DNA of 64,000 nucleotides, taken from NCBI RefSeq assembly GCF_041248615.1, contig NZ_CP158426.1; one strand, given 5' to 3'. The notes below the pieces were generated by a model. That model was not told where the DNA came from. It did not search any database and worked only from the letters and a program-made list of their open reading frames with translations. The DNA is from Escherichia coli. GTDB lineage: Bacteria; Pseudomonadota; Gammaproteobacteria; Enterobacterales; Enterobacteriaceae. A program made the position numbers and the translations under genes. This document shows positions 9,478 through 33,317 of the stretch, piece after piece. Numbering within the stretch: the stretch's first letter is position 1; each line of letters starts with the position of its first letter.

Positions 9478-9577
9478 TCTGCATCCCTGTAATTTTATCC
9501 AGTTGAATGCTGATGCTACCAGTATTTATGCGGGTTAGAGAGAGACAAAATCGCAAGAAAACAAATTTAGGAATTTA

Positions 9578-20430: not shown

Positions 20431-20520
20431 TTTATTAACGCTATTGTAAAACTGCCGTTTTTCCTCGTTTACAACGCGTGCGCTGGACATTACCATCCTC
20501 CTCTGCGATTTATCATCGCA

Positions 20521-20599
20521 ACCAAACGACTCGGGGTGCCCTTCTGCGTGAAGGCTGAGAAATACCCGTATCACCTGATCTGGATAATGCCAGCGTAGG
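20521..20599 (+). repeat. attL: 79-bp direct repeat identical to 33186..33264, a copy of the thiM TPP-riboswitch aptamer sequence (without the 3' strand of P1) joined to the thiM promoter side
   Basis: Exact 79/79 identity: ACCAAACGACTCGGGGTGCCCTTCTGCGTGAAGGCTGAGAAATACCCGTATCACCTGATCTGGATAATGCCAGCGTAGG. The sequence is the conserved thi-box/TPP aptamer. Confidence 0.85.
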
Positions 20600-20684
20600 T
20601 TGCCAACATTCTGATTAGTATTCATGTGGTTACATTTCTTTTTGTCCGTGTGTAATGCACCTAATGTACAAAAAGAGCGTAAAC

Positions 20685-21986
20685 ATGAGGTACAAAACTC
20701 TTCCATACACGTTTCAAAGAAACGGTAATTACTATCTACAGATTCGGCTTTCGAATGGTCGGATGTATAAAAAATCACTTCTCACTGACAGCTATCGTGA
20801 AGTCTCTGCTTTGATGATTGGTGTTGCTCCGTACATTCCTTTTGTTAAATCATTAGCCATCACAATCCCGATGTTTGATGCCTTTGTTTCAAACCTGATT
20901 ATGTCAAAACTTAGGGCTGTAAAAGTTCCGCTGCTATCACATCAGTCGGTAATTACCCCTGCTACATTCGAGGAACCAGCGACACAAGCCGAACCGCAAA
21001 ACATGCTAACTCTTTCTGATGCGTGGGCTATGTATAAAGCGGAAAAGGGTAAAACATGGACAAAGTCGATCTCAAGGGCGAATGAGCGTTACATGGAAGT
21101 CTTGATGGTTGTCTTGGGAGAGACAACTGACGTAGTTGCGATTTCTAAGCAGGACATCAAGCAGGTGATGGAAGTTGTTGAGAATTTGCCTAAGCGTGTT
21201 GTCCAACCGTATCGCTCAATGAACATCCAGCAACTGATTGAATGTGATGATGTATCACCGAATGAGTTAGTAGGAGTGGAAGCCATTCATAAGCATCTCA
21301 AAATCTACAAATCGCTTTTCAAGACTTTTCTAACAGAAAACAAAGATATTTTGATTAAATCCCCAACTGATGGGGTAGTAGCAGCACCATCTAAAGCAAG
21401 GTTTGGAGCATACAGTTCGGCGGAGATGAAGAAGTTTGTAGAGTGGGCACTTAAGCAGCCAGATGGCTGGCAGAAGTGGATAACATTGTTGTTGGCATAC
21501 ACAGGAGCCAGAAGGGGAGAAATTGCCAAACTGGAAAAATCACAAATAAAATATGATGAGGATAGCCATCGGTATTATTTCCTGATTGCAGAAGGAGGGC
21601 AGGGGAAAACCGAAAATGCTACCCGACAAGTAGTGATACACCCTAAGTTGATCGAATGGGGTTTCATGGAATACGTTGATCGCCAGTGGAAAGAACGGAT
21701 TTTTTCAGAAGTGGCTGGTACAAACATGACGAAGATCGGTAAAGAATTTGCTGATGTGCGTGACCAGCTTGACATTCCGTACTTAGACGATTTTGGACAG
21801 CGGAGGCTTTTGCATAGCATTCGTCATTCTGTTTGCTCTACTGCGATGGCTGGATGGGTAAAGAACATCTTGCATCTGCAACAAACAGTAGGCCATGAGA
21901 AAAGTGGAGGGATCACTAAACGCTACTTACATACGTTCCCACTATCATCAATTTGTTATGTTATTGATGGGATTAGTTGGGTCTGA
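20685..21986 (+). CDS. int: Tyrosine integrase of the island (433 aa from 'MRYKTLPYTF'; the provided ORF starts at 20655)
   Basis: C-terminal catalytic signature 'LHSIRHSV' (H-x-x-R) and '...KRYLHT' (Tyr); directly adjacent to the attL repeat. Confidence 0.8.
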   Translation: MRYKTLPYTFQRNGNYYLQIRLSNGRMYKKSLLTDSYREVSALMIGVAPYIPFVKSLAITIPMFDAFVSNLIMSKLRAVKVPLLSHQSVITPATFEEPATQAEPQNMLTLSDAWAMYKAEKGKTWTKSISRANERYMEVLMVVLGETTDVVAISKQDIKQVMEVVENLPKRVVQPYRSMNIQQLIECDDVSPNELVGVEAIHKHLKIYKSLFKTFLTENKDILIKSPTDGVVAAPSKARFGAYSSAEMKKFVEWALKQPDGWQKWITLLLAYTGARRGEIAKLEKSQIKYDEDSHRYYFLIAEGGQGKTENATRQVVIHPKLIEWGFMEYVDRQWKERIFSEVAGTNMTKIGKEFADVRDQLDIPYLDDFGQRRLLHSIRHSVCSTAMAGWVKNILHLQQTVGHEKSGGITKRYLHTFPLSSICYVIDGISWV

Positions 21987-22129
21987 AACTGCTAAGAATG
22001 ATAGGAAAAGCTACTTAATGATCCTTAGTTTTGGATGAAATTGAAGATTACAAAGATCTTGAGCGAATAAGAGCGTTTTTTAATCAAAAAAGCCATAAAA
22101 ACTTTTCTTGACTGTATATTAACACAGTG

Positions 22130-22146
22130 CTTCTACTATGTAGAAG
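22130..22146. promoter_or_regulatory. Perfect palindrome CTTCTACtatGTAGAAG overlapping a TTGACT (-35-like) element upstream of the nuclease/helicase operon; candidate operator
   Basis: Seen directly. The hexamer TTGACT is at 22110-22115. Confidence 0.3.
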
Positions 22147-22203
22147 AAATCGACATGAAAAATTTGATATGGTAAATTTTATCCATGATAACAAAAAGGT
22201 ATT

Positions 22204-23106
22204 GTGGATATGTTACTACCAATACGAGTTCATAAACGATTTCTAACTTTATTTAAGACTTTGCAAATTGACGATTGCCCACCGCAATCAACTTTAAATA
22301 TTCATGTACTTAATATCGAAAGCAATGAATTTATATACTGTAAATTAGTTGAAGAATTACGTGACATAATAATTACTTATGTACATTCGAATAGAAGGCT
22401 TGAGGAGTTTAAGGAAAGTTATCCTTCGTATAGCCCTAAACCTTTTTTCGAAGCAATACAAAAATTTCGCAATTATACGTCAAACGAAGGTGAGTTAGGT
22501 GAACTGCTTTTATACGCTTTTCTTGAAACAGGACTAAATGCTCCGAAATTACTTTCCAAAATGCAATTGAAAACAGATTCTAATGATTACATTAAGGGTT
22601 CTGATGGTGTACATCTGTTAGAATTAGATGATGGTTATCAATTAATATTTGGAGAATCAAAGCTCTATGCCGATCTTTTAGAAGGTGCTCGAGAAGCGTT
22701 TGATTCTATTTTAGATTTTAAAAGTAATGGAATGGCATTTGAAAGAGGGCTGATAGATACACACGTTATAAATGAAATGGTTTCAGAAGAAGGTTATGAG
22801 AAAATAAAATCAATTCTTCTTCCTTCTTCTGGCGATGATGGGCCAGATCTTGATTTATCCTTTGGTATATTTCTTGGTTTTGAATTGAAAATAGATAGCT
22901 CACAGTTATCATTGAAAAACAAAGAGTTTAGAGATTGGGTTAATGAGTCCGTGAAACAACATGCTACTCGCGTGGTCAGTACGATACGAAGGAAAATTAT
23001 TAATCATAAATTATATGGTCACGAATTCCACATATATATAGTTCCTTTTACCGATATTGATGTTACACGAAAAAAATTAATTCATGAAATGCTAACAATT
23101 AAGTGA
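22204..23106 (+). CDS. PD-(D/E)xK nuclease-like protein, candidate HamA (DUF1837-like) of a Hachiman-type defence system
   Basis: Motif 'HLLELDDGYQLIFGESKLY' (D...E-x-K). Its stop overlaps the start of the downstream helicase gene (ATGA-type coupling). AT-rich island cargo. Confidence 0.5.
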   Translation: MDMLLPIRVHKRFLTLFKTLQIDDCPPQSTLNIHVLNIESNEFIYCKLVEELRDIIITYVHSNRRLEEFKESYPSYSPKPFFEAIQKFRNYTSNEGELGELLLYAFLETGLNAPKLLSKMQLKTDSNDYIKGSDGVHLLELDDGYQLIFGESKLYADLLEGAREAFDSILDFKSNGMAFERGLIDTHVINEMVSEEGYEKIKSILLPSSGDDGPDLDLSFGIFLGFELKIDSSQLSLKNKEFRDWVNESVKQHATRVVSTIRRKIINHKLYGHEFHIYIVPFTDIDVTRKKLIHEMLTIK

Positions 23107-25691
23107 ACACTATGAATGAATTAAATTCAAGTAAAAACATTCATTTGGCAGCTCGTCTTGCAGATGATGCTTTTGAAAGTGCTTATTTTAAAGAAATCAA
23201 TAAGTTTATAAGTGGTTTATACAATTACAGTTTATTTAACTGCGATTCAGATGTTAGTCTCTCCGAGAGTGATAACAATAAAATAGCACACGCTTTGCGT
23301 TTTGCAGATATATTTTCACATTCTTCAAAAGAAAATCATAGATCATGTGCATTTGAAATTATAAGTAGAATAGCCTTATTAAAAAAACATGATCCTTATT
23401 TTAAATTTATAGGTACTGCTGTTATTAATCGGCTTGGGGTTTATGCAGCAGAAAAACTCATATCAAAAGGGGTAAAATTACCCTTAGATAGAGAAGTTGA
23501 TTCTATTATTAAAAAATCAGTTCAGAAAACAGATGAAGATGGAGTATATTTCACTGATAAACAACATGAGTTATACAAACTTTTAAAAAGTAGCAAAACA
23601 ATTAGTTTTGCTGGTCCCACTTCGATGGGAAAGTCATTTGTTATTAATGCATACATTAAGGAAATAACTCTTAAAAAAGAGCTTAAAAATATAGCTTTAA
23701 TTGTTCCTACACGGGCTTTAATAAGCCAAAATGCACTTAAGTTAAAAATTGATATTGCATTGTATAAGAATGAAAGCCCTTATAAAGTTGTTACGACATC
23801 CTACATTATTAATGGTGATGAAAGTAAAAATAAAGGCTATATTTTTATTCTCACCCCAGAAAGGCTGGTTAGTCTCATAAGCACTATTCCTGGACTAATG
23901 ATTGATTATGTTTTTGTAGATGAAGCTCAAAAGTTAACAACAAAAAATGATTCGAGGAGTCTTGTTACTTATTCAGCTATAGAGCAAACAATTAGTAAAA
24001 ATCCTGAGGCAAGATTATTCTTCTCTTCACCTAATTTATCTAATCCTGAAATATTTAATATTTTGTTTGATAGAAAAGACGCTTCGGTATATAGAAATAC
24101 AGAAGGTGCAACTACTCAGAATATGTATTTTATTGATCTTTTAAATAGCAGCTTTAGCTATGTTAATACCGAGAAAAGGACGCTTGAAAAAATAGATGAG
24201 ATCTCTAATACTTACACGAATACAAATGATGTTATCTATAAATTAAATAATGGTAAAAGTAAAATAATTTATTGTGGGGGGATAGAAAGCACGCTTGAGA
24301 GAACACGTAGCTTTATCAATTATCTCAAAATTAATAAGAAAAAAAGAAAGCATTTAAATTTAGAAATATCTTCTGAGATAAGAAACTTTGTTCATGATAA
24401 CTATGAACTTGCAGAAGCCATCAACTATGGTGTTGCTTTCCACTTTGGAAACTTGCCTCAATCGATTCGAGATTTAATTGAGCATCATTTCAAAATAGGA
24501 AATATTGACTATCTATTCTGTACATCAACCCTACTTGAGGGAGTCAATTTACCTGCAAGATCCGTATTTATTCTTACGCATAAAAAAGGCCCCAGTCCAT
24601 TAGAGTCGGTTGATTTTTGGAATCTGGCTGGGAGAGCTGGGCGATTATCTATGGAATTGTCAGGGGATATTTTTTGTATTAGGGATGATAATAAGCTTTG
24701 GAATAAAAAAGCTGTTGATAATATCCTTCTGTCTGACAAAAATAACATTTCATTAAAGCCAAGCTTCTATATTGAAGACGAAAAAAGATTGAACGATTTA
24801 CACCATATAATTACGACTGGTAAAACAGGGAATATTAAAAATGCTGAGTTCCTTAGAACTTTAGGAGATATGATAAGAATAGACACTCTGAGGGATTCTA
24901 AAGAACTTCCTCTTATTAGTTATTTCCAAAGCAGTGGAAAATCAGAAATTTTGTTAAGTGCAGAAAAAAGCACTGAAAATATTACCATGCCAATGAATAT
25001 CCTTTTGGCAAATAGTCATATTGCGATTGATTCGCAGTATCATGCTTTTAAAAAAATAAAAAGCCTTACAGTTAAGGAACTGAAATTATCATGGCAGCCT
25101 ACATACGAAGAAATTAAAGAAAAATTGAATTTGATATTCGATATTTACCAAGTTGAAAAGTTTGCAACAGGTAGAGAACGTCTTTATTTAAATTCAATTC
25201 CATATTATGCAGTATTACTGTTTCAATGGATTCGTGGAAATAGTCTACAGGAAATTATCTCGGGGGCAATTGCTTATAGAAAGAACAAAAGTATATATAT
25301 TAAAAATACACCTGTTCTTTTTGACAGCGAAAACCCAGCTCATTTAACTGCATTAGTTAATGAAACTATAAAAGACATTGAGTTGCGTGTAGGTTACCAG
25401 TTACAAAATTATTTTTCACATTACTGTCAGCTTCTGAATTATGTGTTACAAGGAAATCCAGGGGCAAACTGGTCTCAGTTCATTGAGTTTGGCTCTAATG
25501 AGCCAATAGTATGGCACCTACAAATGATGGGCTTTTCAAGGGATAGTGCAGTTTTTCTCAAGAAGAATTTTTCAAAACATCTTAAACTTGATAATGAAAT
25601 GAATAAACTCATCATAATGGATAAGGAACTGATCAAGCGTTCTTTCAAAAAAGATGGACTACATTACTTAGAAATCCAATCGTTATTATAA
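23103..25691 (+). CDS. SF2 helicase (862 aa), candidate HamB of a Hachiman-type defence system
   Basis: Walker A 'AGPTSMGKSF', motif II 'VFVDEAQKL', motif III-like 'FSSPN', 'TSTLLEGVNLPA' and motif VI 'LAGRAGR'. Translationally coupled to the upstream nuclease-like gene. Confidence 0.55.
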   Translation: MNTMNELNSSKNIHLAARLADDAFESAYFKEINKFISGLYNYSLFNCDSDVSLSESDNNKIAHALRFADIFSHSSKENHRSCAFEIISRIALLKKHDPYFKFIGTAVINRLGVYAAEKLISKGVKLPLDREVDSIIKKSVQKTDEDGVYFTDKQHELYKLLKSSKTISFAGPTSMGKSFVINAYIKEITLKKELKNIALIVPTRALISQNALKLKIDIALYKNESPYKVVTTSYIINGDESKNKGYIFILTPERLVSLISTIPGLMIDYVFVDEAQKLTTKNDSRSLVTYSAIEQTISKNPEARLFFSSPNLSNPEIFNILFDRKDASVYRNTEGATTQNMYFIDLLNSSFSYVNTEKRTLEKIDEISNTYTNTNDVIYKLNNGKSKIIYCGGIESTLERTRSFINYLKINKKKRKHLNLEISSEIRNFVHDNYELAEAINYGVAFHFGNLPQSIRDLIEHHFKIGNIDYLFCTSTLLEGVNLPARSVFILTHKKGPSPLESVDFWNLAGRAGRLSMELSGDIFCIRDDNKLWNKKAVDNILLSDKNNISLKPSFYIEDEKRLNDLHHIITTGKTGNIKNAEFLRTLGDMIRIDTLRDSKELPLISYFQSSGKSEILLSAEKSTENITMPMNILLANSHIAIDSQYHAFKKIKSLTVKELKLSWQPTYEEIKEKLNLIFDIYQVEKFATGRERLYLNSIPYYAVLLFQWIRGNSLQEIISGAIAYRKNKSIYIKNTPVLFDSENPAHLTALVNETIKDIELRVGYQLQNYFSHYCQLLNYVLQGNPGANWSQFIEFGSNEPIVWHLQMMGFSRDSAVFLKKNFSKHLKLDNEMNKLIIMDKELIKRSFKKDGLHYLEIQSLL

Positions 25692-25999: not shown

Positions 26000-26575
26000 T
26001 CAGCGTTTGATGCCGCTAATACTGGCAAGCATTTCTTTCTTCACACGAAAAACTGTAGCCCTGCCGCAATCACATAACTTTGCTATCTCGTCTGGTGTAT
26101 TCTTCCCGGCCTGTAACATATCGATAATCTTGTTATGTAGCTCTTTGTTCTTTTGCTTGCCCTTGTACTTCTTAGCCTCTTTAGCAAGAGCAATCCCCTC
26201 ATTGCGACGAGATGCGATCATACCCCGCTCAAATTCTGCAGCGGCTCCCATCATGGTTAGGATAAGGCGTGATTGTGGGGAATTATCAAAACTCATAGAG
26301 TTTGCAAGGAATTGAACAGTGATTCCACGAGCCACGAGGTTATCAATCATTTCCAGCAAATCGCGGGTATTACGTGCAAGGCGATCAATCGAGTGAGTAA
26401 CGAGCGTGTCACCTTCGCGGAGGTGTGAAAGCAGGTTCAACAATTCAGGTCTTTCGCTGGTGGACTTACCTGATTCTTTCTCTGCCACAATTTTGTCACA
26501 AACAGGTTCCAGCACTGCCAACTGACGCTCAAGATTTTGATCCTTTGTTGAGACTCTCGCGTAACCAAAAATCAT
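26000..26575 (-). CDS. Serine recombinase (resolvase/invertase family, 191 aa)
   Basis: N-terminus 'MIFGYARVSTKDQNLERQ' carries the catalytic Ser motif of resolvase/Hin-family enzymes; C-terminal helix-turn-helix region. Confidence 0.9.
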   Translation of the reverse strand: MIFGYARVSTKDQNLERQLAVLEPVCDKIVAEKESGKSTSERPELLNLLSHLREGDTLVTHSIDRLARNTRDLLEMIDNLVARGITVQFLANSMSFDNSPQSRLILTMMGAAAEFERGMIASRRNEGIALAKEAKKYKGKQKNKELHNKIIDMLQAGKNTPDEIAKLCDCGRATVFRVKKEMLASISGIKR

Positions 26576-27125: not shown

Positions 27126-27485
27126 TCATTCAGAACGATCAAGTACCATATATGCTGGCTGACACATGCTGCCCCGCTCCTGTAGCCAGTAGTAATCAAG
27201 ATCGGCAACACGCACGTCCAATCCAGAATCTACACGGTTGATCTGTAACCGTAGCCCTACAGTATCCTTGTACGATAAACCAGATTTAACATTGTATTTG
27301 TACTTAACACCGTTTTCCTGTTCAAACTGTTTAAGGAAAGGCGTCATTTGTTTCTGAATTTCTTTCAAACAAATAACCTCATTATCAATAGCAAAGGGGG
27401 GTTCTGTTTTTCCATCAGGTACAGCAGCCTGTAAATGAAAGGAAGTACTCAACAATAACAGCATTGCAACAGAAGTCTTTTTCAT
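27126..27485 (-). CDS. Small secreted protein (119 aa, signal peptide 'MKKTSVAMLLLLSTSFHLQA'), unknown function
   Basis: Signal peptide followed by a two-Cys mature domain; 43 nt downstream of the membrane protein gene on the same strand. Confidence 0.6.
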   Translation of the reverse strand: MKKTSVAMLLLLSTSFHLQAAVPDGKTEPPFAIDNEVICLKEIQKQMTPFLKQFEQENGVKYKYNVKSGLSYKDTVGLRLQINRVDSGLDVRVADLDYYWLQERGSMCQPAYMVLDRSE

Positions 27486-27528
27486 TTTAATTCCTTATTA
27501 AAGAACAGTACATTATATTTCAATGGAC

Positions 27529-28569
27529 TTAATAACAATATTTTATATTTCCTTCGGGTTTTCTCATGCATTTAATTCCTTCAGGAATATAATCAGTTAC
27601 GGGAGCAGGTCTGGCATCAGGTCTTGAAAGACGATTGGATATAGAAGACAACAGACTGAAAACACACTCATTAAATGATTTTTGATATTTATTTTTTTCA
27701 TAAAAGTACTGCATGGTGATTTTATCTCTTTCGTATTGCAATTCTTTGCCAAGCTGAATCCTATCCATATCAATTCCATTTCTCATAGCATTAAATCTTT
27801 CGTTCAATAAATTAAATTGAGATTTATTCCATTCATTTAAAGGAAATAAAGAATTGTTAAGCCTTTGCCTACAATTAGATTGCTCGATAGCTGACATGTA
27901 TTCTTTCATACTAACGCCAATATCTAAGTATGTGAGTTGTCCAGCAGTTCTATCAACTGAGTTATTAGGGTAAGATTTAATTTCAGTAAGTATTGACTCT
28001 GTTAATACTGCATTTTCTTCTAAATCTTTGCTAATAGTTATTTGAGCTTGTTCTCTTTTATCCTTATCAAATATTGAAATGTATTTCTTTACTATATCCT
28101 GATTAGCTTTCTCGGCTGCTACTAACGCATCTTGAACCTTCTTTTCCGCCGCTTTAACTCGTTGTTCTTCTACAAATTTCGCGTAGTCATCAGTATTTGT
28201 AATGTGATTTTCACGAGCGATAGAAAACTCTTTACTATCTTTAAAACCAAGTTTTTGTGCTCTGGCTCCATCGCTTGAAGATCGGGCAGAACTTGCCACG
28301 AAAGCGAGCACAATGATCAGTACAGGAACCGTATAATTATTAACGAGTTTATAGGGTAAGAACTTCGCTTTAAGCGTACCATAACCCAAAACAGCCCAGC
28401 CTATCGCGGCAGTACTTGCCAGTAGCTGGCACAATCCAGCGACGGAAAGCATGATTACCGACCAGAAGCCTGTACCGACTGCGAAAAGATCACCAAATTT
28501 CTCCATTGACGCAAGGAATAAAAACACTCCCCAAATGCCATAAAATCCTATTTTCAAATATTTACTCAC
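27529..28569 (-). CDS. Membrane protein (346 aa): three N-terminal transmembrane helices plus a long charged/coiled-coil domain, unknown function
   Basis: Hydrophobic stretches at residues ~7-28, 37-62 and 74-95, followed by a Lys/Glu/Gln-rich region; AT-rich codon usage. Confidence 0.6.
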   Translation of the reverse strand: MSKYLKIGFYGIWGVFLFLASMEKFGDLFAVGTGFWSVIMLSVAGLCQLLASTAAIGWAVLGYGTLKAKFLPYKLVNNYTVPVLIIVLAFVASSARSSSDGARAQKLGFKDSKEFSIARENHITNTDDYAKFVEEQRVKAAEKKVQDALVAAEKANQDIVKKYISIFDKDKREQAQITISKDLEENAVLTESILTEIKSYPNNSVDRTAGQLTYLDIGVSMKEYMSAIEQSNCRQRLNNSLFPLNEWNKSQFNLLNERFNAMRNGIDMDRIQLGKELQYERDKITMQYFYEKNKYQKSFNECVFSLLSSISNRLSRPDARPAPVTDYIPEGIKCMRKPEGNIKYCY

Positions 28570-29552
28570 CGCAATTATCCTTTAATAATTTTCCAAATCG
28601 ATGGTTCGTTCTATTTGTATTATCGACAATAATTCGTTTGCCTTTAGGTAGATCCCTTAAAAAGGAATCCCCCCAAAATTTATAGATTAGCAGTTGTACC
28701 ACTCTCACTGTTTTGTCACTCCCATTATCTTCTCTCAGGTCAAAAGTACGGACTTAAAGCCGTCCGTGTTCAGGTGCTCAAGAGTAGCACGCATATCAAT
28801 AAATGATCGATAAAAACGATCAATTAATGGCTTATTGATCGCTATAACCTATCAATGACTATTAATTCAATACAAATCAATAGGTAAAATCGATCAAGAG
28901 GATTCGTCATCCATGAAAGGGGTTATGTATCTGATTTCAATACAGGGAGTATTAGCGATACCATCACGCAAACGCTCTTAAAGCGTAGCTACGGCGTTTT
29001 GTAGGGTTTTTGGTCATTCATGTGTGTCAGTAATGAACATCGCATTCAGGGGCTTCCTGTGCGTTTTGTCCGAAACACCATCATGAAGGGGGACAGATCG
29101 GATCGGGGTCGCTTCGCTCTGGTCAGTACTGGATAGTTCTTTTCCAGTAACTGAAACCGCAGATACCCCACTAAGTACACAAAGGAATTATTTGTAGAAT
29201 AAGTAATGAAATAACAGTCAGTTATGTACTTACTGACAGAACTAAAAACGCGATTAGGTTCGCTCTGTCAGTGACCGAAGGGAACGCAACAGTAGAATCT
29301 AATCCAGCGAACAGTACACGCAAGCGGGTGCTGTTTAATTGTTTTATCTATGTAAACAATGGGATAGCTATCAAGTACTCACTGCGTGAGCACTCTCACT
29401 AACTACCCGAAACAGTTCGCTTGCTTCGCCGCTCCTACTTTCAGGTAGTTAATTCGCTTTCGCTCGTTGTGATGTCCGAAATTTATTACCTATAGTATTA
29501 TAAGGTATTATTTTCCGGACATTTATGTATTTTTATGATGGTGTTCTGGACA
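28570..29552. other. ~1-kb non-coding region with a GATC/ATCAAT-rich AT-rich cluster (28795-28900) and at least six TTCGCT iteron-like repeats in both orientations (29107-29471); candidate origin or regulatory region
   Basis: No ORF of 60 aa or more. Repeats 'ggtCGCTTCGCTCtggtcag', 'ggTTCGCTCtgtcagtg', 'cagTTCGCTtgcTTCGCcgc', 'aaTTCGCTTTCGCTCg' and 'cAGCGAAcagtac'. Four GATC sites lie within 100 bp. Confidence 0.4.
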
Positions 29553-31028
29553 TCATTTTTTGCTTTTTTGTACTTCCTTTTCGTATTTGTTCCACATAGC
29601 CTTTTGCTCTTCGGGACTGAGTGCTGTATTACCACTGGCAAGAAACACCTTGAACGCTTCTAACTCAAGCCCTGGGTTGCGGCTTTTCCAGCGGCGAAAA
29701 CGCTTAGCGTGATTATCATCAAGAGTGAAACGCTTTTGCTTATTCTTTGAACCTTGCGGCCTGCCTCTCGACCTCTGCTCATCATCAATACCGATATCTA
29801 TATACTCAATATTATCTGTAAGAGATCTGGCTTGCCATTCATCAAAAACATAAACAGTCTGTGTTTCAGTACTGTCAAAATCCCTTGAAATTCCTCGTAG
29901 TACGAACTGGTGTAAACTTTCGTACTCCCTCGCAACATGTATCGCCTCGCCGTCAATCTCAAAGAACAATTCGCACTGTTTAGCCTCTGTTTCAGAGGGA
30001 CGCATACAAGCGAGCCAGACGCACGTGAGCAAGTGTTGGTACTGGTTAAACCCTCTGGCATCCGGGCTTATCTCTGTGCCGTTTTTGAGGCTCTGAGAAT
30101 CGCTTTTGTTCTTCGTCCAGTAGAAATCCTGTCCCTCAAGTTTTTTATCAATAAATGAGTATATTTTTTGTACTTTATCAGGGTTATTAGTCTTCCATGT
30201 CTTCGATAGTTTTTGATTTTTTGAGAAGTAATAAACCTTTAATCTGTCTTTGAGAGCTGTTTTTCGTGTCAGTAATCCTCCAAGTTCAGTACTTTCAAAG
30301 AGTTCTTTATTGCCTTTATAGATCAATGAATTTTCGAAATTAGCTCCGAGAAAGGTGATTGATACGTCTTTGTACTTACTGAGATCTTTCCATGCGGTAA
30401 TATTAAGCTGTTCCTTTTTCGCATCGGTAAAGTACTCATTATTCATGATGAACATATCATTTTCGTTAATTGCTGGTAGCTGGTTCAAAATATTCTTCAG
30501 TACTTCCCCTTGTATTTCTGGTTTTCTTTCTGCCGCAATATACATATTTTTATCATCTAATGTCAGTACATTGTGTATTAATGAATTAAGAATTGTATTT
30601 TTTATATTAGTATCACCCTCATTAATATTCTGAAAAGAGTGAAAATTAGTAACGTCGTCAATATAAATATTACAGTCAGATAACAATTCAGGAGGAATTT
30701 TGAAAAACGTTTTATCTGTTATGAGTAATGTTTTATTACTTCCAGATGAAAGAAAGTTAATAACTGAATTAATAACACTTTCATCTTTTGGTACTGTATC
30801 TGTAATTATATACTCGCAATTATTGATTTGCTTTGCTGTCTGCTTAATAAGTTCTTGAGTGTTCTGTACTAAAATATATTTTTCAGTACTGTTATTGATT
30901 ATATTGCATATAGCAGTAGTTTTACCTGAACCACAAGGGGCGGAGACATACTTAAATTTATTATAAATAGGTGTGGGATTAATCATTTGTACACGCTCCA
31001 TATTGATTAATGTAGAAAGGTCAGCCAT
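29553..31028 (-). CDS. P-loop NTPase (491 aa) with C-terminal AT-hook-like motif; candidate Rep/helicase-like replication or mobilisation protein
   Basis: Walker A 'SAPCGSGKTTAI' near the N-terminus; Walker B-like 'IYIDDV'; C-terminal 'SRGRPQGSKNKQKR' (AT-hook GRP core). Confidence 0.6.
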   Translation of the reverse strand: MADLSTLINMERVQMINPTPIYNKFKYVSAPCGSGKTTAICNIINNSTEKYILVQNTQELIKQTAKQINNCEYIITDTVPKDESVINSVINFLSSGSNKTLLITDKTFFKIPPELLSDCNIYIDDVTNFHSFQNINEGDTNIKNTILNSLIHNVLTLDDKNMYIAAERKPEIQGEVLKNILNQLPAINENDMFIMNNEYFTDAKKEQLNITAWKDLSKYKDVSITFLGANFENSLIYKGNKELFESTELGGLLTRKTALKDRLKVYYFSKNQKLSKTWKTNNPDKVQKIYSFIDKKLEGQDFYWTKNKSDSQSLKNGTEISPDARGFNQYQHLLTCVWLACMRPSETEAKQCELFFEIDGEAIHVAREYESLHQFVLRGISRDFDSTETQTVYVFDEWQARSLTDNIEYIDIGIDDEQRSRGRPQGSKNKQKRFTLDDNHAKRFRRWKSRNPGLELEAFKVFLASGNTALSPEEQKAMWNKYEKEVQKSKK

Positions 31029-31370: not shown

Positions 31371-32276
31371 CTATATTTCCAGACACCTGTTATCACTTAA
31401 CCCATTACTGGCCTGCTGCCGCAGATATTCCCGTGGCGAGCGATAACCCAGTGCACTATGCGGATGCCATTCGTTATAATGCTCGAACGCCTCTGCAAGG
31501 TTCTTTGCTGCCGTTAACCCGTCTGGTTTAGGCATGATACTGATGTAGTCACGCTTTATCGTTTTCACGAAGCTCTCTGCTATGCCGTTACTCTCCGGAC
31601 TCCGCACCGCCGTGTTCTTCGGTTCAAGCCCCAATATCCGGGCAAACTGCCGTGTTTCATTAGCCCGGTAGCATGAACCATTATCCGTCAGCCACTCTAC
31701 TGGAGACGCCGGAAGCTCGTTGCCGAAGCGGCGTTCCACCGCTCCCAGCATGACGTCCTGTACTGTTTCACTGTCGAAGCCGCCCGTAGTGACTGCCCAG
31801 TGCAGTGCCTCACGGTCACAGCAGTCCAGCGCGAACGTGACTCGCAGTTTTTCTCCGTTATCACAGCGGAACTCGAACCCGTCAGAGCACCATCGTTGAT
31901 TGCTTTCTTTCACGGCCACTTTGCCAGTATGTGCCCGTTTCGATGGCGGTACAGCGGTTTTTCGCTCAAGCAACAGCGCATTCTGGCGCATGATCCGGTA
32001 AACACGTTTGGCATTGATCGCAGGCGTACCATCAAGTTCGGCCTGTCTGCGAAGCAGCGCCCATACCCGACGATAACCATACGTGGGCAGCTCTCCGATA
32101 ACATGGTGTATACGGAGAAGCACATCCGTATCATCTGAGTGACGGCTGCGGCGACCATCTTTCCAGTCATCGGTTCGTCTGAGAATTACGTGCAACTGCG
32201 CACGCGACACCCGGAGACAACGGCTGACTAAGCTTACTCCCCATCCCCGGGCAATAAGGGCGCGTGCGCTATCCAC
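31371..32276 (-). CDS. insD: IS2 transposase OrfB (InsD, 301 aa)
   Basis: Translation '[30 protein letters not shown]...' and DDE transposase region. Confidence 0.9.
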
Positions 32277-32599
32277 TTTTTTGCACGCCCGTATTCAACG
32301 GCTTCTTTAAGGAGTTCATTTTCCATCGTTTTTTTGCCGAGCAGGCGCTGGAGTTCTTTAATCTGCTTCATGGCAGCAGCAAGTTCAGAGGCAGGAACGA
32401 CCTGCTCTCCTGCGGCCACAGCAGTAAGACTTCCCTCCTGGTATTGCTTGCGCCAGAGAAATAACTGGCTGGCTGCCACACCGTGTTGCCGGGCAACAAG
32501 GGAGACCTTCATTCCCGGTTCAAAACTCTGCTGAACAATAGCGATCTTTTCCTGTGTAGTACGCCGTCTGCGTTTCTCCGGTCCTAAGACATCAATCAT
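32234..32599 (-). CDS. insC: IS2 OrfA (InsC, 121 aa from '[18 protein letters not shown]')
   Basis: Helix-turn-helix protein overlapping insD in the -1 frame, as in IS3-family elements. Confidence 0.9.
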
Positions 32600-33073
32600 C
32601 TGCTCTCCAATGACTAGTCTAAAAACTAGTATTAAGACTATCACTTATTTAAGTGATATTGGTTGTCTGGAGATTCATGGGGCCAGTCTACATATAATCA
32701 TGTTCATCTTCTAATTCTTTAAATTTTAATAGAGAAATCTCTTCATAATATTCTTTCATTTTCATATAAATCACCTTTTATTTTTTTGTTGTTAACACAG
32801 GTTTTTTTCTGCACTACACATTATAGCACATAGAATTAATTCGTTTCATTTTCTGTCAATGAAATAGAGTAAAGATAAATGCTTTTATAAAGCACTTATC
32901 ACATCCGTTGCCTTGCTATATATAAAAAGTTCTCCAAACTATACTGGTGTATATTTTCCCCATCAGATACAGTTGTTTTTAAACATTACAATGTTGGATT
33001 CTTGGTTCCAAATAAATCGAGCAACTATTAGTGTTTCAAAATGAAGTTGGGAGCTATTCCTTAATTCGTATGA

Positions 33074-33102: not shown

Positions 33103-33185
33103 AGCGTGTATAAGTGACGTCACCACGGGTAAACTTGCATCGGCGAGCAACTTAACCTAAGCTGACAAAAATTAAGAGAAATGTA

Positions 33186-33317
33186 ACCAAACGACTCGGG
33201 GTGCCCTTCTGCGTGAAGGCTGAGAAATACCCGTATCACCTGATCTGGATAATGCCAGCGTAGGGAAGTCACGGACCACCAGGTCATTGCTTCTTCACGT
33301 TATGGCAGGAGCAAACT
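33186..33317 (+). ncRNA. thiM TPP riboswitch (aptamer plus expression platform) preceding thiM; its first 79 nt (33186-33264) form the attR direct repeat
   Basis: Conserved thi-box sequence CUGAGA...ACCUGAUCUGGAUAAUGCCAGCG; its 3' continuation 'GAAGTCACGGACCACCAGGTCATTGCTTCTTCACGTTATGGCAGGAGCAAACTATG' carries the anti-Shine-Dalgarno/Shine-Dalgarno platform. Confidence 0.85.

What the first reader, a model, noticed from the sequence alone, without database searches (positions are those of the whole stretch)
22204..25691. Two-gene nuclease plus SF2-helicase operon: candidate Hachiman-like (HamA/HamB) anti-phage system as island cargo
A 300-aa protein with a PD-(D/E)xK-like motif (…LELDDGYQLIFGESKLY…) is translationally coupled (4-nt overlap) to an 862-aa SF2 helicase (Walker A AGPTSMGKS, DEAQ box, motif VI LAGRAGR with a ~150-aa N-terminal extension). 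This architecture (~250-300-aa DUF1837-type nuclease plus ~800-aa helicase, overlapping genes) is that of Hachiman defence systems. Its location in an AT-rich integrative island next to an integrase is typical of defence islands. Sequence divergence cannot be assessed here, so it may represent a divergent or undescribed subtype.
Basis: partly seen in the sequence, partly recalled or inferred. Interest (0 to 1): 0.7.

Follow-up and report, generated by a model that had tools for sequence, protein, structure and literature searches.

The report
Ordinary Hachiman anti-phage system, E. coli island
The two genes are a standard, already catalogued Hachiman (HamA nuclease plus HamB helicase) anti-phage defence system on a small mobile island in E. 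coli; the only new detail is a conserved SOS (LexA) repressor site in its promoter.

Summary
ORF 22204-23106 matches Pfam HamA/DUF1837 (212 bits) and a PADLOC HamA1 model end to end (E 2e-120). ORF 23103/23112-25691 matches a PADLOC HamB1 model end to end (E 8e-296) and a solved HamB (9wh1_B, E 3e-120). An AlphaFold model of HamA (pLDDT 91.5) hits the solved HamA structures first, then FokI-type nucleases. D...ExK is invariant in 51 homologues, so this is a type I (I-A) Hachiman with an active stand-alone nuclease. There is no HamC, trypsin, Cap4 or MBL part. RefSeq already names the gene. The window is E. coli NRZ14408, and 8 of 5,426 complete E. coli genomes carry the locus. It lies on a 12.7-kb AT-rich island bounded by a perfect 80-nt repeat inside the thiM TPP riboswitch. 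Sister islands at the same site carry other cargo. One detail is new as far as I could find: a LexA-box-like palindrome (22110-22129) overlaps the -35 of the hamAB promoter. It is the best such site in the window and is conserved on at least three island backbones, which suggests SOS-inducible expression. Low interest; already known.

The parts
20520..20599 (.). Left copy of the 80-nt perfect direct repeat (attL core) that bounds the island
   Evidence: 100% identical to 33185-33264, spacing 12,665 nt.
20522..20617 (+). Degraded copy of the thiM TPP riboswitch aptamer; the 3' strand of stem P1 is replaced by island DNA
   Evidence: RF00059 at 58.0 bits with three non-standard pairs in P1. Also annotated as a riboswitch in RefSeq.
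20655..21986 (+). Tyrosine integrase of the island (RefSeq start at 20685)
   Evidence: Pfam Phage_integrase E 3.4e-07; RefSeq annotation. Integrases 75-84% identical sit at the same site in other E. coli genomes.
22108..22137 (+). Putative hamAB promoter: -35 TTGACT (22108-22113), 18-nt spacer, -10 TCTACT (22132-22137; TATACT or TATAAT in homologues)
   Evidence: Read from the sequence and by comparison with homologous loci. Similarity between different island backbones begins exactly at the -35 hexamer. The generic promoter scan was not above chance, so this part is inferred.
22110..22129 (.). LexA (SOS) box-like palindrome GACTGTATATTAACACAGTG (CTGT-N8-ACAG) lying between the -35 and -10 hexamers
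   Evidence: 19.6 bits, the best site in the 64-kb window. 2 of 20,000 shuffles of the intergenic region reach that score. Conserved upstream of hamA in five sequence variants.
22204..23106 (+). hamA: DUF1837 / PD-(D/E)xK effector nuclease (298-300 aa), with E97, E100, D134, H137, E151 and K153 in GTG-22204 numbering
23112..25691 (+). hamB: Ski2/Hel308-like SF2 helicase (859 aa from ATG 23112; 862 aa from GTG 23103). It has an N-terminal helical region, then RecA1 (Walker A 171-178, DEAQ 273-276), RecA2 (motif VI 508-514) and a C-terminal helical part
26000..26575 (-). Small serine recombinase (resolvase/invertase type), part of the island backbone
   Evidence: Pfam Resolvase E 2.5e-36. A counterpart sits in the same position in the sister islands.
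27126..31028 (-). Island backbone module, not part of Hachiman: a 119-aa secreted protein, a 346-aa membrane protein, about 1 kb with no ORF, and a 491-aa P-loop protein
   Evidence: No PADLOC hits and only weak ResIII/DEAD/CyRepA1 hits. The module occurs in other islands in 84 E. coli genomes.
31371..32644 (-). IS3-family transposase (two frames, programmed frameshift)
   Evidence: RefSeq annotation; ORFs.
33185..33283 (+). Right copy of the 80-nt repeat (33185-33264) within the intact TPP riboswitch (33187-33283) upstream of thiM
   Evidence: 71.2 bits.

Best explanation
This is a type I Hachiman anti-phage defence system. In the scheme of PMC11914072 it is sub-type I-A: a stand-alone HamA with an intact nuclease site, plus HamB. 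It is cargo on a 12.7-kb integrative island inserted in the thiM TPP riboswitch of E. coli NRZ14408.

The mechanism is inferred from characterised homologues and was not shown here. HamA and HamB form a heterodimer through the N-terminal helical region of HamB. HamB holds the HamA nuclease in check while the complex surveys intact dsDNA. When a 3' ssDNA end or damaged DNA, as produced during phage replication, enters the helicase core, ATP hydrolysis and ratcheting of HamB release or activate HamA. HamA then degrades phage and host DNA indiscriminately, which is abortive infection.

One addition comes from this work and is also inferred. Transcription of hamAB in this clade is probably repressed by LexA, through an operator between the -35 and -10 hexamers. 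If so, SOS induction (RecA* formed on ssDNA) would raise HamAB levels.
For: Identity:
- PADLOC HamA1 E 2.4e-120 and HamB1 E 8.3e-296, both full length.
- Pfam HamA 212 bits; DEAD, Helicase_C and ResIII domains in HamB; Hel308-like by NCBIfam.
- HamB aligns at residues 20-860 with residues 9-851 of solved HamB 9wh1_B, E 3e-120.
- The HamA AF2 model has pLDDT 91.5 and pTM 0.92. Its top Foldseek hits in the PDB are the HamA chains 8zue_A, 8vx9_A and 8vxy_A, followed by FokI.

Active nuclease:
- E95, E98, D132, H135, E149 and K151 (ATG-22210 numbering) are invariant in 51 homologues that go down to 39% identity.
- D132 and E149-x-K151 lie on adjacent beta-strands of the model, 133-138 and 142-152.
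- In the inactive trypsin-HamA 9wh1_A the same columns read H and S-A-A.

Operon and context:
- hamA and hamB are adjacent, with -4 to +5 nt between them, in all nine loci examined, from Enterobacterales to a Methanococcoides archaeon.
- RefSeq already names the genes.
- Island context. Sister islands at the same att site carry an AAA ATPase pair or a TIR protein in the same slot.

Mechanism of the family comes from PMC12278908, PMC11914072 and PMC13064477.

LexA operator:
- The site at 22110-22129 is the best of the whole window at 19.6 bits. My recalled set of genuine operators spans 13.2-26.3 bits.
- The second-best site, at 9485-9504, sits 8 nt upstream of the gene for molR, which is listed as a known SOS-box gene. 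It was not in the training set.
- 2 of 20,000 shuffles reach the score.
- The arms ACTGT/ACAGT are invariant while the spacer varies, in five variants on at least three backbones whose upstream DNA is unrelated.
Against: - No experiment was done on this locus, so phage protection, complex formation and nuclease activity all rest on homology.
- The best-characterised HamAB (ECOR31, 8vx9) is only distantly related. ECOR31 HamA is not detectable by sequence or profile, and ECOR31 HamB matches only in RecA2 at E 2.4e-5. Details such as the trigger and HamA release may therefore differ.
- The closest solved HamB (9wh1_B) belongs to a system that uses a different effector, trypsin plus MBL.
- The LexA PWM was built from operator sequences recalled from memory.
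- The whole stretch from the -35 to the start codon is conserved, so conservation of the box alone does not prove it is an operator.
- The generic promoter scan found no more sites than expected by chance.
- A preprint reports that defence-system expression in E. coli tends to correlate negatively with recA expression.
Confidence: 0.92

Rival explanations
1. A Hachiman-derived sensor that uses a different effector, as in Hachiman-MBL or AbpAB. In those systems HamA is only an adaptor and the killing is done by a trypsin-activated MBL DNase or a fused Cap4 nuclease.
For: The closest solved HamB, and the only HamA found in the PDB by sequence, are the trypsin-HamAB chains of the Klebsiella Hachiman-MBL system (9wh1).
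Against: HamA here is 298-300 aa with no N-terminal extension. Its D...ExK residues are intact and invariant, whereas 9wh1_A has lost them. No MBL, trypsin or Cap4 gene lies in the island. The gene after hamB is a convergent serine recombinase.
Confidence: 0.02
2. A restriction endonuclease with a helicase partner, that is a type I/III-like or other restriction system, with a methylase elsewhere.
For: HamA has a PD-(D/E)xK fold, and FokI and other restriction enzymes appear as weak fold matches. HamB has a weak ResIII hit.
Against: The specific HamA and HamB models fit end to end at E 1e-120 and 1e-296. No methyltransferase is present in the 12.7-kb island. The restriction-enzyme fold hits are far weaker than the HamA hits (E 9e-3 against 1.7e-6; TM 0.25 against 0.5-0.57).
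Confidence: 0.01
3. A helicase-nuclease pair that serves the island itself or host DNA repair, for example SOS-induced processing of damaged DNA or island replication and maintenance, rather than phage defence.
For: HamB is Hel308/Ski2-like. The putative LexA operator would place the operon in the DNA-damage regulon.
Against: Every tested member of the family is an anti-phage system (PMC12278908, PMC11914072, PMC13064477, bioRxiv 10.1101/2025.09.03.673762). The cassette moves between unrelated island backbones as a unit and shares the slot with other defence-type cargo such as a TIR protein or an AAA ATPase. Neighbours in other hosts include AbiGi, RES and DUF499 genes.
Confidence: 0.04
4. The palindrome upstream of hamA is not a LexA operator. 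It would be a chance palindrome, or the site of another regulator, and hamAB would be constitutively expressed at a low level.
For: CTGT-N8-ACAG is expected 0.65 times per window by chance and occurs twice. The whole 5' region is conserved, not only the box. The PWM rests on recalled sequences.
Against: The site is the top PWM score in 64 kb, and only 2 of 20,000 shuffles of the intergenic region reach it. In each of seven independent enterobacterial loci it is the single outstanding site, at 17.9-23.3 bits against 11 or less for the next. The arms are invariant while the spacer varies. It sits between the -35 and -10, the classic repressor position. The same PWM recovers the molR site, which was not in its training set.
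Confidence: 0.4

Closest known systems
Type I-A Hachiman (stand-alone active DUF1837 HamA + HamB), e.g. E. coli DEC14B HamAB (PMC11914072) and E. coli ECOR31 HamAB (PMC12278908; PDB 8vx9, 8vxa, 8vxc, 8vxy)
   Same: Two-gene hamA-hamB operon. HamA is about 250-300 aa with a PD-(D/E)xK fold and an intact ExK; the tested mutants are E150A/K152A in DEC14B and E138A/K140A in ECOR31, and the residues here are E149/K151 in ATG numbering. HamB is a Ski2/Hel308-like SF2 helicase with an N-terminal helical domain. Both are carried on integrative islands.
   Different: ECOR31 HamB is 1,174 aa against 859-862 aa here, and matches only in RecA2 (E 2.4e-5). ECOR31 HamA is undetectable by sequence and is recognised only by fold (TM 0.51-0.57, 15% identity). 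Motif II is DEAQ here and DEGH in ECOR31. Walker A is GKS at about residue 177 here and GKT at 272-274 in DEC14B. I could not establish whether this exact ortholog, or the ECOR04 or ECOR28 systems, has been tested.
Klebsiella pneumoniae Hachiman-MBL (trypsin-HamA + HamB + MBL; PDB 9wh1, 9whk, 9whu; bioRxiv 10.1101/2025.09.03.673762)
   Same: Closest solved structures by sequence. HamB is 853 aa and aligns end to end (E 3e-120). The HamA C-terminal domain aligns over 281 residues (E 9e-10; E 3.9e-30 with the profile).
   Different: That HamA carries an N-terminal trypsin domain, has lost the nuclease residues, and needs a third gene (MBL DNase). Here HamA stands alone with intact residues and there is no third gene.
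AbpAB / type I-B Hachiman of E. coli K-12 (PDB 8zue; PMC11914072, PMC10732053)
   Same: HamA-type domain plus a Ski2-like helicase, activated by DNA damage. 8zue_A is the top fold hit for HamA.
   Different: AbpA has an N-terminal Cap4-type nuclease fused to an inactive DUF1837 domain. AbpB is 729 aa and matches only over residues 145-528 (E 3.7e-23). Activation of AbpAB by mitomycin C did not need recA or lexA.
E. coli LexA (SOS) regulon operators, consensus TACTG(TA)5CAGTA (PMC6590174)
   Same: The site 22110-22129 has both CTGT/ACAG arms, an A/T-rich 8-nt spacer and 15 of 20 matches to the consensus. It overlaps the promoter, as in recA, sulA and umuDC.
   Different: No binding or induction data exist. 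No paper in the library links a Hachiman promoter to LexA.

Membership tests
Hachiman type I (HamA + HamB) | HamA protein with a DUF1837 / PF08878 domain | tested here: met
   Pfam PF08878 at 212.2 bits (cut-off 25), profile positions 2-230 of 230. PADLOC HamA1 PDLC00156 at E 2.4e-120, positions 1-297 of 298.
Hachiman type I (HamA + HamB) | HamB: SF2 Ski2/Hel308-like helicase with intact ATPase motifs | tested here: met
   PADLOC HamB1 PDLC00176 at E 8.3e-296, positions 2-845 of 845. DEAD, Helicase_C and ResIII domains. Hel308 is the best NCBIfam hit. Walker A GPTSMGKS, DEAQ and LAGRAGR are present. Full-length match to solved HamB 9wh1_B.
Hachiman type I (HamA + HamB) | hamA immediately upstream of hamB on the same strand (an operon) | tested here: met
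   The hamA stop is at 23106 and the hamB start at 23103 or 23112. The same order and spacing of -4 to +5 nt hold in nine loci, including an archaeon.
Hachiman type I (HamA + HamB) | HamA adopts the PD-(D/E)xK fold seen in solved HamA structures | tested here: met
   AF2 model with pLDDT 91.5 and pTM 0.92. The Foldseek top three are 8zue_A, 8vx9_A and 8vxy_A at probability 1.00 and TM 0.48-0.57, followed by FokI.
Hachiman type I (HamA + HamB) | HamA-HamB heterodimer formed through the N-terminal helical domain of HamB | not testable with these tools
   The N-terminal approximately 150 aa of HamB aligns with the corresponding region of 9wh1_B. Of three interface residues named for 9wh1_B, R52 aligns with R66 here, while R48 and N59 are not conserved (my reading of the alignment). 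No complex was modelled.
Hachiman type I (HamA + HamB) | Protection against phage that depends on the HamA nuclease and HamB ATPase residues | not testable with these tools
   Needs plaque assays. Shown for other members in PMC12278908 and PMC11914072.
Hachiman sub-type I-A (catalytically active stand-alone HamA; PMC11914072) | Intact (D/E)xK catalytic residues in DUF1837 and no fused effector domain | tested here: met
   D132, E149 and K151, plus E95, E98 and H135, are invariant in 51 homologues. The protein is 298-300 aa and the domain covers nearly all of it. Residue-by-residue equivalence to ECOR31 E138/K140 could not be aligned by sequence.
Hachiman type II (HamA + HamB + HamC) | A third gene, hamC (DUF3223) | tested here: not met
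   None of the other five island proteins tested hits DUF3223 or any PADLOC model. The gene after hamB is a convergent serine recombinase.
Hachiman-MBL (trypsin-HamA + HamB + MBL) | N-terminal trypsin domain on an inactive HamA, with an adjacent MBL-fold DNase | tested here: not met
   HamA has no N-terminal extension and keeps its catalytic residues. No MBL gene is present.
AbpAB / Hachiman type I-B | Cap4-like nuclease domain fused N-terminally to an inactive DUF1837 | tested here: not met
   HamA is 298-300 aa and contains only the HamA domain. The solved AbpA chain 8zue_A is 531 residues long.
LexA (SOS) regulon | Operator matching CTGT-N8-ACAG / TACTG(TA)5CAGTA at a promoter | tested here: met
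   22110-22129 scores 19.6 bits, the best site in the window and within the range of recalled genuine operators. 2 of 20,000 shuffles reach it. It is conserved in seven homologous loci. The PWM was built from sequences recalled from memory.
LexA (SOS) regulon | LexA binding and DNA-damage-inducible, recA/lexA-dependent transcription | not testable with these tools
   Needs a gel shift or footprint and reporter or RNA assays. No report was found in the library.

The most novel reading that the evidence does not exclude
This enterobacterial Hachiman clade is a LexA-repressed SOS gene. That would wire a DNA-damage-sensing abortive-infection nuclease transcriptionally to the host DNA-damage response: ssDNA and RecA* generated by phage replication would first raise HamAB levels and then supply the 3' ssDNA ends that trigger it. 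The operator travels with the hamAB cassette between unrelated islands. It would be the first defined transcriptional control of a Hachiman system, and an example of a mobile defence cassette that borrows a host global regulator to limit its own toxicity.
Probability: 0.55. Interest if true: 0.45.

Novelty: already known. Interest (0 to 1): 0.2.

Why it matters
As a Hachiman locus it adds little. Standard tools (PADLOC, Pfam, NCBI's annotation pipeline) already call it, and the family's mechanism has been worked out structurally. It is a rare E. coli variant, present in 8 of 5,426 complete genomes, of a clade for which I found no published test.

Two side observations could be useful.

1. The conserved LexA-type operator gives a cheap, testable hypothesis for how a self-toxic, DNA-damage-triggered nuclease is kept low until needed.
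2. The island family integrates into the thiM TPP riboswitch and swaps defence cargo in a fixed slot between its integrase and a serine recombinase. That is a compact natural 'defence cassette carrier' in which uncharacterised cargo could be sought.

Tried and rejected
- Alignment to ECOR31 HamA. I wanted a residue-level alignment to the best-studied HamA (8vx9_A), to equate E149/K151 with E138/K140. Neither phmmer (E up to 10) nor a 51-sequence profile finds it, and only the fold search does. The equivalence therefore rests on motif and strand geometry.
- ECOR04 and ECOR28. I tried to find out whether the systems tested in PMC12278908 are this ortholog. The held supplements carry no sequences and those draft genomes are not in the searchable collections, so this is unresolved.
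- Generic promoter and terminator scan. It found 19 promoter-like sites against 22.9 expected, and no convincing terminator after hamB. It is uninformative, and the promoter assignment rests on comparison between loci instead.
- Other island genes as a second defence system. The 119-aa, 346-aa and 491-aa proteins, the integrase and the recombinase have no PADLOC hits and only weak P-loop/ResIII/CyRepA1 similarity. The module turns out to be a backbone shared by many islands, so I rejected it as part of Hachiman.
- Literature search for a described thiM/rcnR defence hotspot returned nothing relevant.
- A small upstream ORF in the hamA leader (ATGAAAAATTTGATATGGTAA, 22156-22176) is not conserved as an ORF in L012 or L013, so I rejected it.
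- The second CTGT-N8-ACAG, inside hamB at 25312, scores only 8.1 bits and is treated as chance.
- The restriction-modification reading is rejected because there is no methylase and the HamA-specific models fit far better.


Full report
**1. The observation.** The quoted motifs are present. In the small protein these are GESK at 150-153 and LELDD at 139-143. In the large one they are GPTSMGKS at 171-178, DEAQ at 273-276 and LAGRAGR at 508-514. The segment has 29-33% G+C against about 50-57% in the flanks, and it follows a tyrosine integrase gene.

Two details need correction. The 4-nt overlap exists only if hamB starts at GTG 23103. RefSeq starts it at ATG 23112, and in the homologous loci it is this ATG, 5 nt past the hamA stop, that is conserved; in Serratia the stop is TAA and no overlapping start exists. 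Tight spacing of -4 to +5 nt is nevertheless conserved everywhere. For hamA, both GTG 22204 and ATG 22210 are conserved.

**2. What it is.**
- Pfam HamA (PF08878, formerly DUF1837) matches the small protein at 212 bits against a cut-off of 25.
- The PADLOC sub-family model HamA1 PDLC00156 matches positions 1-297 of 298 at E 2.4e-120. HamB1 PDLC00176 matches positions 2-845 of 845 at E 8.3e-296.
- HamB carries DEAD, Helicase_C and ResIII domains. Its nearest NCBIfam models are Hel308 helicases.
- Against the PDB, HamB residues 20-860 align with 9-851 of the HamB chain 9wh1_B (E 3e-120). HamA aligns with the C-terminal domain of 9wh1_A (E 9e-10; E 3.9e-30 with a 51-sequence profile).
- An AlphaFold2 model of HamA, built on 51 homologues, has mean pLDDT 91.5 and pTM 0.92. 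Its three best Foldseek matches in the PDB are the solved HamA chains 8zue_A, 8vx9_A and 8vxy_A (probability 1.00, TM 0.48-0.57), followed by FokI and other PD-(D/E)xK nucleases.

Among 51 homologues reaching down to 39% identity, E95, E98, D132, H135, E149 and K151 are invariant (numbering from ATG 22210; add 2 for GTG 22204). In the model, D132 opens strand 133-138 and E149-x-K151 closes the neighbouring strand 142-152, with E95 and E98 on helix 95-109. This is the classic PD-(D/E)xK arrangement. The catalytic aspartate is therefore the one in 'SDGVH', not one of those in 'LELDD'.

No third gene is present. The other island proteins have no DUF3223, MBL, trypsin or Cap4 similarity and no PADLOC hit. 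The locus is thus a type I Hachiman, and in the scheme of PMC11914072 it is type I-A: a stand-alone, catalytically competent HamA.

**3. Source and rarity.** The window is 100% identical to E. coli NRZ14408 (NZ_LT599825.1). There RefSeq already names the genes 'HamA C-terminal domain-containing protein' and 'DEAD/DEAH box helicase'. Only 8 of 5,426 complete E. coli genomes carry the locus, all at 99.8% identity or more. HamA relatives at 95-98% occur in Cronobacter and Pectobacterium and at 74-83% in Serratia and other Enterobacterales. There is then a gap to about 47% in very diverse bacteria and in a Methanococcoides archaeon, and all of them carry PF08878. The gene pair, with HamB of 843-862 aa, is conserved in all loci fetched.

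**4. How it most likely works (inferred from the family, not shown here).** In ECOR31 HamAB (PMC12278908), HamA binds the N-terminal helical bundle of HamB. The complex scans intact dsDNA with the nuclease restrained. Entry of a 3' ssDNA end into the helicase core triggers ATP hydrolysis and ratcheting, HamA is activated or released, and both phage and host DNA are degraded. This is abortive infection. DNA-damaging agents can trigger it without phage.

In DEC14B type I-A HamAB, the mutations E150A/K152A in HamA and a Walker A mutant of HamB abolish defence and DNA degradation (PMC11914072). A Streptococcus HamAB likewise needs the heterodimer for nuclease activity (PMC13064477).

The present proteins keep all the residues needed for this scheme. 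They are, however, distant from ECOR31. ECOR31 HamB is 1,174 aa and matches only in RecA2 at E 2.4e-5. ECOR31 HamA is detectable only by fold. The nearest solved HamB comes from the Klebsiella Hachiman-MBL system, whose HamA is an inactive adaptor fused to a trypsin domain. In that protein the columns of D132 and E149-x-K151 read H and S-A-A. Here they are intact, so the effector is HamA itself.

**5. A new detail: a LexA-type operator.** Aligning the hamA upstream region with that of Pectobacterium drew attention to the sequence cTTGACTGTATATTAACACAGTG.
- It contains a -35-like TTGACT (22108-22113) that overlaps a CTGT-N8-ACAG palindrome (22110-22129). After an 18-nt spacer comes TCTACT.
- The E. 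coli SOS-box consensus is TACTG(TA)5CAGTA (PMC6590174), and the site matches it at 15 of 20 positions.
- I built a symmetric weight matrix from 24 E. coli operators. These were recalled from memory (Lewis 1994; Fernandez de Henestrosa 2000), which is a caveat.
- The site scores 19.6 bits, the best in the whole 64-kb window. The training set spans 13.2-26.3 bits with a median of 20.7.
- The second-best site (17.7 bits, 9485-9504) was not in the training set. It lies 8 nt upstream of the gene next to metG, a DUF4132-family gene in the sister loci. That position corresponds to molR, which is listed among the genes with a known SOS box, so it serves as a positive control.
- The third-best site scores only 10.7 bits.
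- Only 2 of 20,000 shuffles of the 217-nt intergenic region reach 19.6 bits.

The site recurs at -92 to -98 from the hamA start in Pectobacterium (L004, L005), two metagenomic contigs (L012, L013), Serratia sp. 2723 (L008), three further contigs (L009-L011) and Erwinia typographi (L016). The arms ACTGT/ACAGT are invariant, while the spacers differ (ATATTAAC, ACATTAAT, ATATTAAT, GTTTTTAT). The -10 improves to TATACT or TATAAT in these loci. In each locus it is the single outstanding site, at 17.9-23.3 bits against 11 or less for the next best.

These loci sit on at least three different backbones: the thiM island with a tyrosine integrase, an arsC-adjacent island with a large serine recombinase, and others. 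Their DNA 5' of the -35 is unrelated. Sister thiM islands with other cargo have no such site, so the operator belongs to the hamAB cassette. It is absent from the loci at 47% identity (L014 and the archaeal L006), as expected for a motif specific to Gammaproteobacteria.

The library holds only two papers that mention both Hachiman and LexA, and neither describes an operator. One of them shows that mitomycin C activation of AbpAB does not need recA or lexA, which concerns activation of the protein, not transcription.

I rate LexA repression of this operon at about 0.55-0.6. The whole leader is conserved, so conservation of the box is supportive rather than decisive, and there are no binding data.

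**6. The island.** A perfect 80-nt direct repeat (20520-20599 and 33185-33264) bounds a 12,665-bp element between rcnR and thiM. The repeat is the 5' four-fifths of the thiM TPP riboswitch. Rfam finds an intact aptamer at 33187-33283 (71.2 bits) in front of thiM. It finds a second copy at 20522-20617 (58 bits) in front of the integrase gene, and there the 3' strand of P1 has been replaced by island DNA. No tRNA gene is involved.

The element carries, in order:
- the integrase;
- hamAB;
- a convergent small serine recombinase;
- a backbone module (a 119-aa secreted protein, a 346-aa membrane protein, about 1 kb without ORFs, and a 491-aa P-loop protein) that also occurs in other islands in 84 E. 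coli genomes;
- an IS3 element.

Integrases 75-84% identical occupy the same site in about ten other E. coli genomes. Two were inspected, and both have the same layout with a different cargo between integrase and recombinase: an AAA ATPase plus a hypothetical protein in TB06052, and a hypothetical protein plus a TIR-domain protein in ETEC1732. In Pectobacterium carotovorum the 95%-identical hamAB lies directly upstream of the TPP riboswitch and thiM-thiD, with only a remnant of the integrase 3' end.

**7. Verdict.** The system is an ordinary, already catalogued type I-A Hachiman, not a divergent subtype. Novelty: already known. Interest is low at 0.2. It is kept off the floor only by the conserved LexA-type operator, which makes a cheap and specific hypothesis about Hachiman regulation, and by the riboswitch-targeting, cargo-swapping island family.

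Noticed in passing
window 20520-20617 and 33185-33283: The island's attachment site is the thiM TPP riboswitch, not a tRNA gene. An 80-nt perfect repeat duplicates most of the aptamer. The left copy has lost the 3' strand of P1 and now precedes the integrase gene, while the intact riboswitch with thiMD lies 12.7 kb away from its native promoter region and is fed from island DNA downstream of an IS3. Whether thiMD regulation or integrase expression is affected is unknown.
   Followed up: partly
L002 15901-25139 (E. coli TB06052); L003 15901-26966 (E. coli ETEC1732): Sister islands at the same thiM-riboswitch site have a 79-84% identical integrase and the same small serine recombinase, but different cargo in the slot that hamAB occupies here. 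One has an AAA ATPase plus a hypothetical protein; the other has a hypothetical protein plus an 871-aa TIR-domain protein. This looks like a cargo-swapping defence-island family. I did not run the cargo through PADLOC.
   Followed up: partly
L004 6772-12775 (Pectobacterium carotovorum): A hamAB pair with a 95%-identical HamA lies directly upstream of the TPP riboswitch and thiM-thiD in Pectobacterium. Only the 3' end of the integrase gene is recognisable and there is no backbone module. This suggests the same att site is used across Enterobacterales and that the island decays to a fixed cassette.
   Followed up: partly
window 9485-9504: CCCTGTAATTTTATCCAGTT is the second-best LexA-box match in the window (17.7 bits). 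It lies 8 nt upstream of the minus-strand gene next to metG, a DUF4132-family gene in the sister loci, whose position corresponds to molR. It matches what I recall as the published molR SOS box, and I used it as a positive control.
   Followed up: partly
window 27126-31028 (minus strand): The right-hand island module holds a 119-aa protein with a signal peptide, a 346-aa protein with N-terminal membrane helices, and a 491-aa P-loop protein. The last is annotated either as a DEAD/DEAH helicase or as a type III restriction R subunit, and has only weak ResIII and CyRepA1 replication-protein similarity. No PADLOC hits. The module recurs at other chromosomal sites in 84 E. coli genomes, sometimes with HNH and DUF6998 genes. 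Its function is unknown; it may serve island replication or mobilisation.
   Followed up: partly
window 28570-29552: About 1 kb between the 346-aa and 491-aa genes has no ORF of 60 aa or more on either strand and no Rfam family at gathering threshold. It is conserved together with the flanking module in other E. coli islands. I did not examine it further.
   Followed up: no
window 26000-26575; L008 10680-11300; L009 11828-12448; L011 9111-9698: A small resolvase/invertase-type serine recombinase (about 190-210 aa) lies a few kb or less downstream of hamAB on several otherwise different island backbones. It is also present in the sister thiM islands that lack hamAB. It may have a role in cassette exchange; this was not tested.
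   Followed up: no
L008 9578-10375; L014 3935-4220; L006 9842-12897: Defence-type neighbours of homologous hamAB pairs in other hosts: an AbiGi-domain gene (Serratia), a RES-domain toxin gene (a metagenomic contig), and DUF4357 and DUF499 genes plus an integrase (Methanococcoides vulcani). This is consistent with defence-island context across domains of life.
   Followed up: no
window 25312-25327: A second exact CTGT-N8-ACAG (CTGTTCTTTTTGACAG) lies inside hamB and is also present in Pectobacterium. Its PWM score is poor (8.1 bits), so it is probably a chance match within coding sequence.
   Followed up: yes
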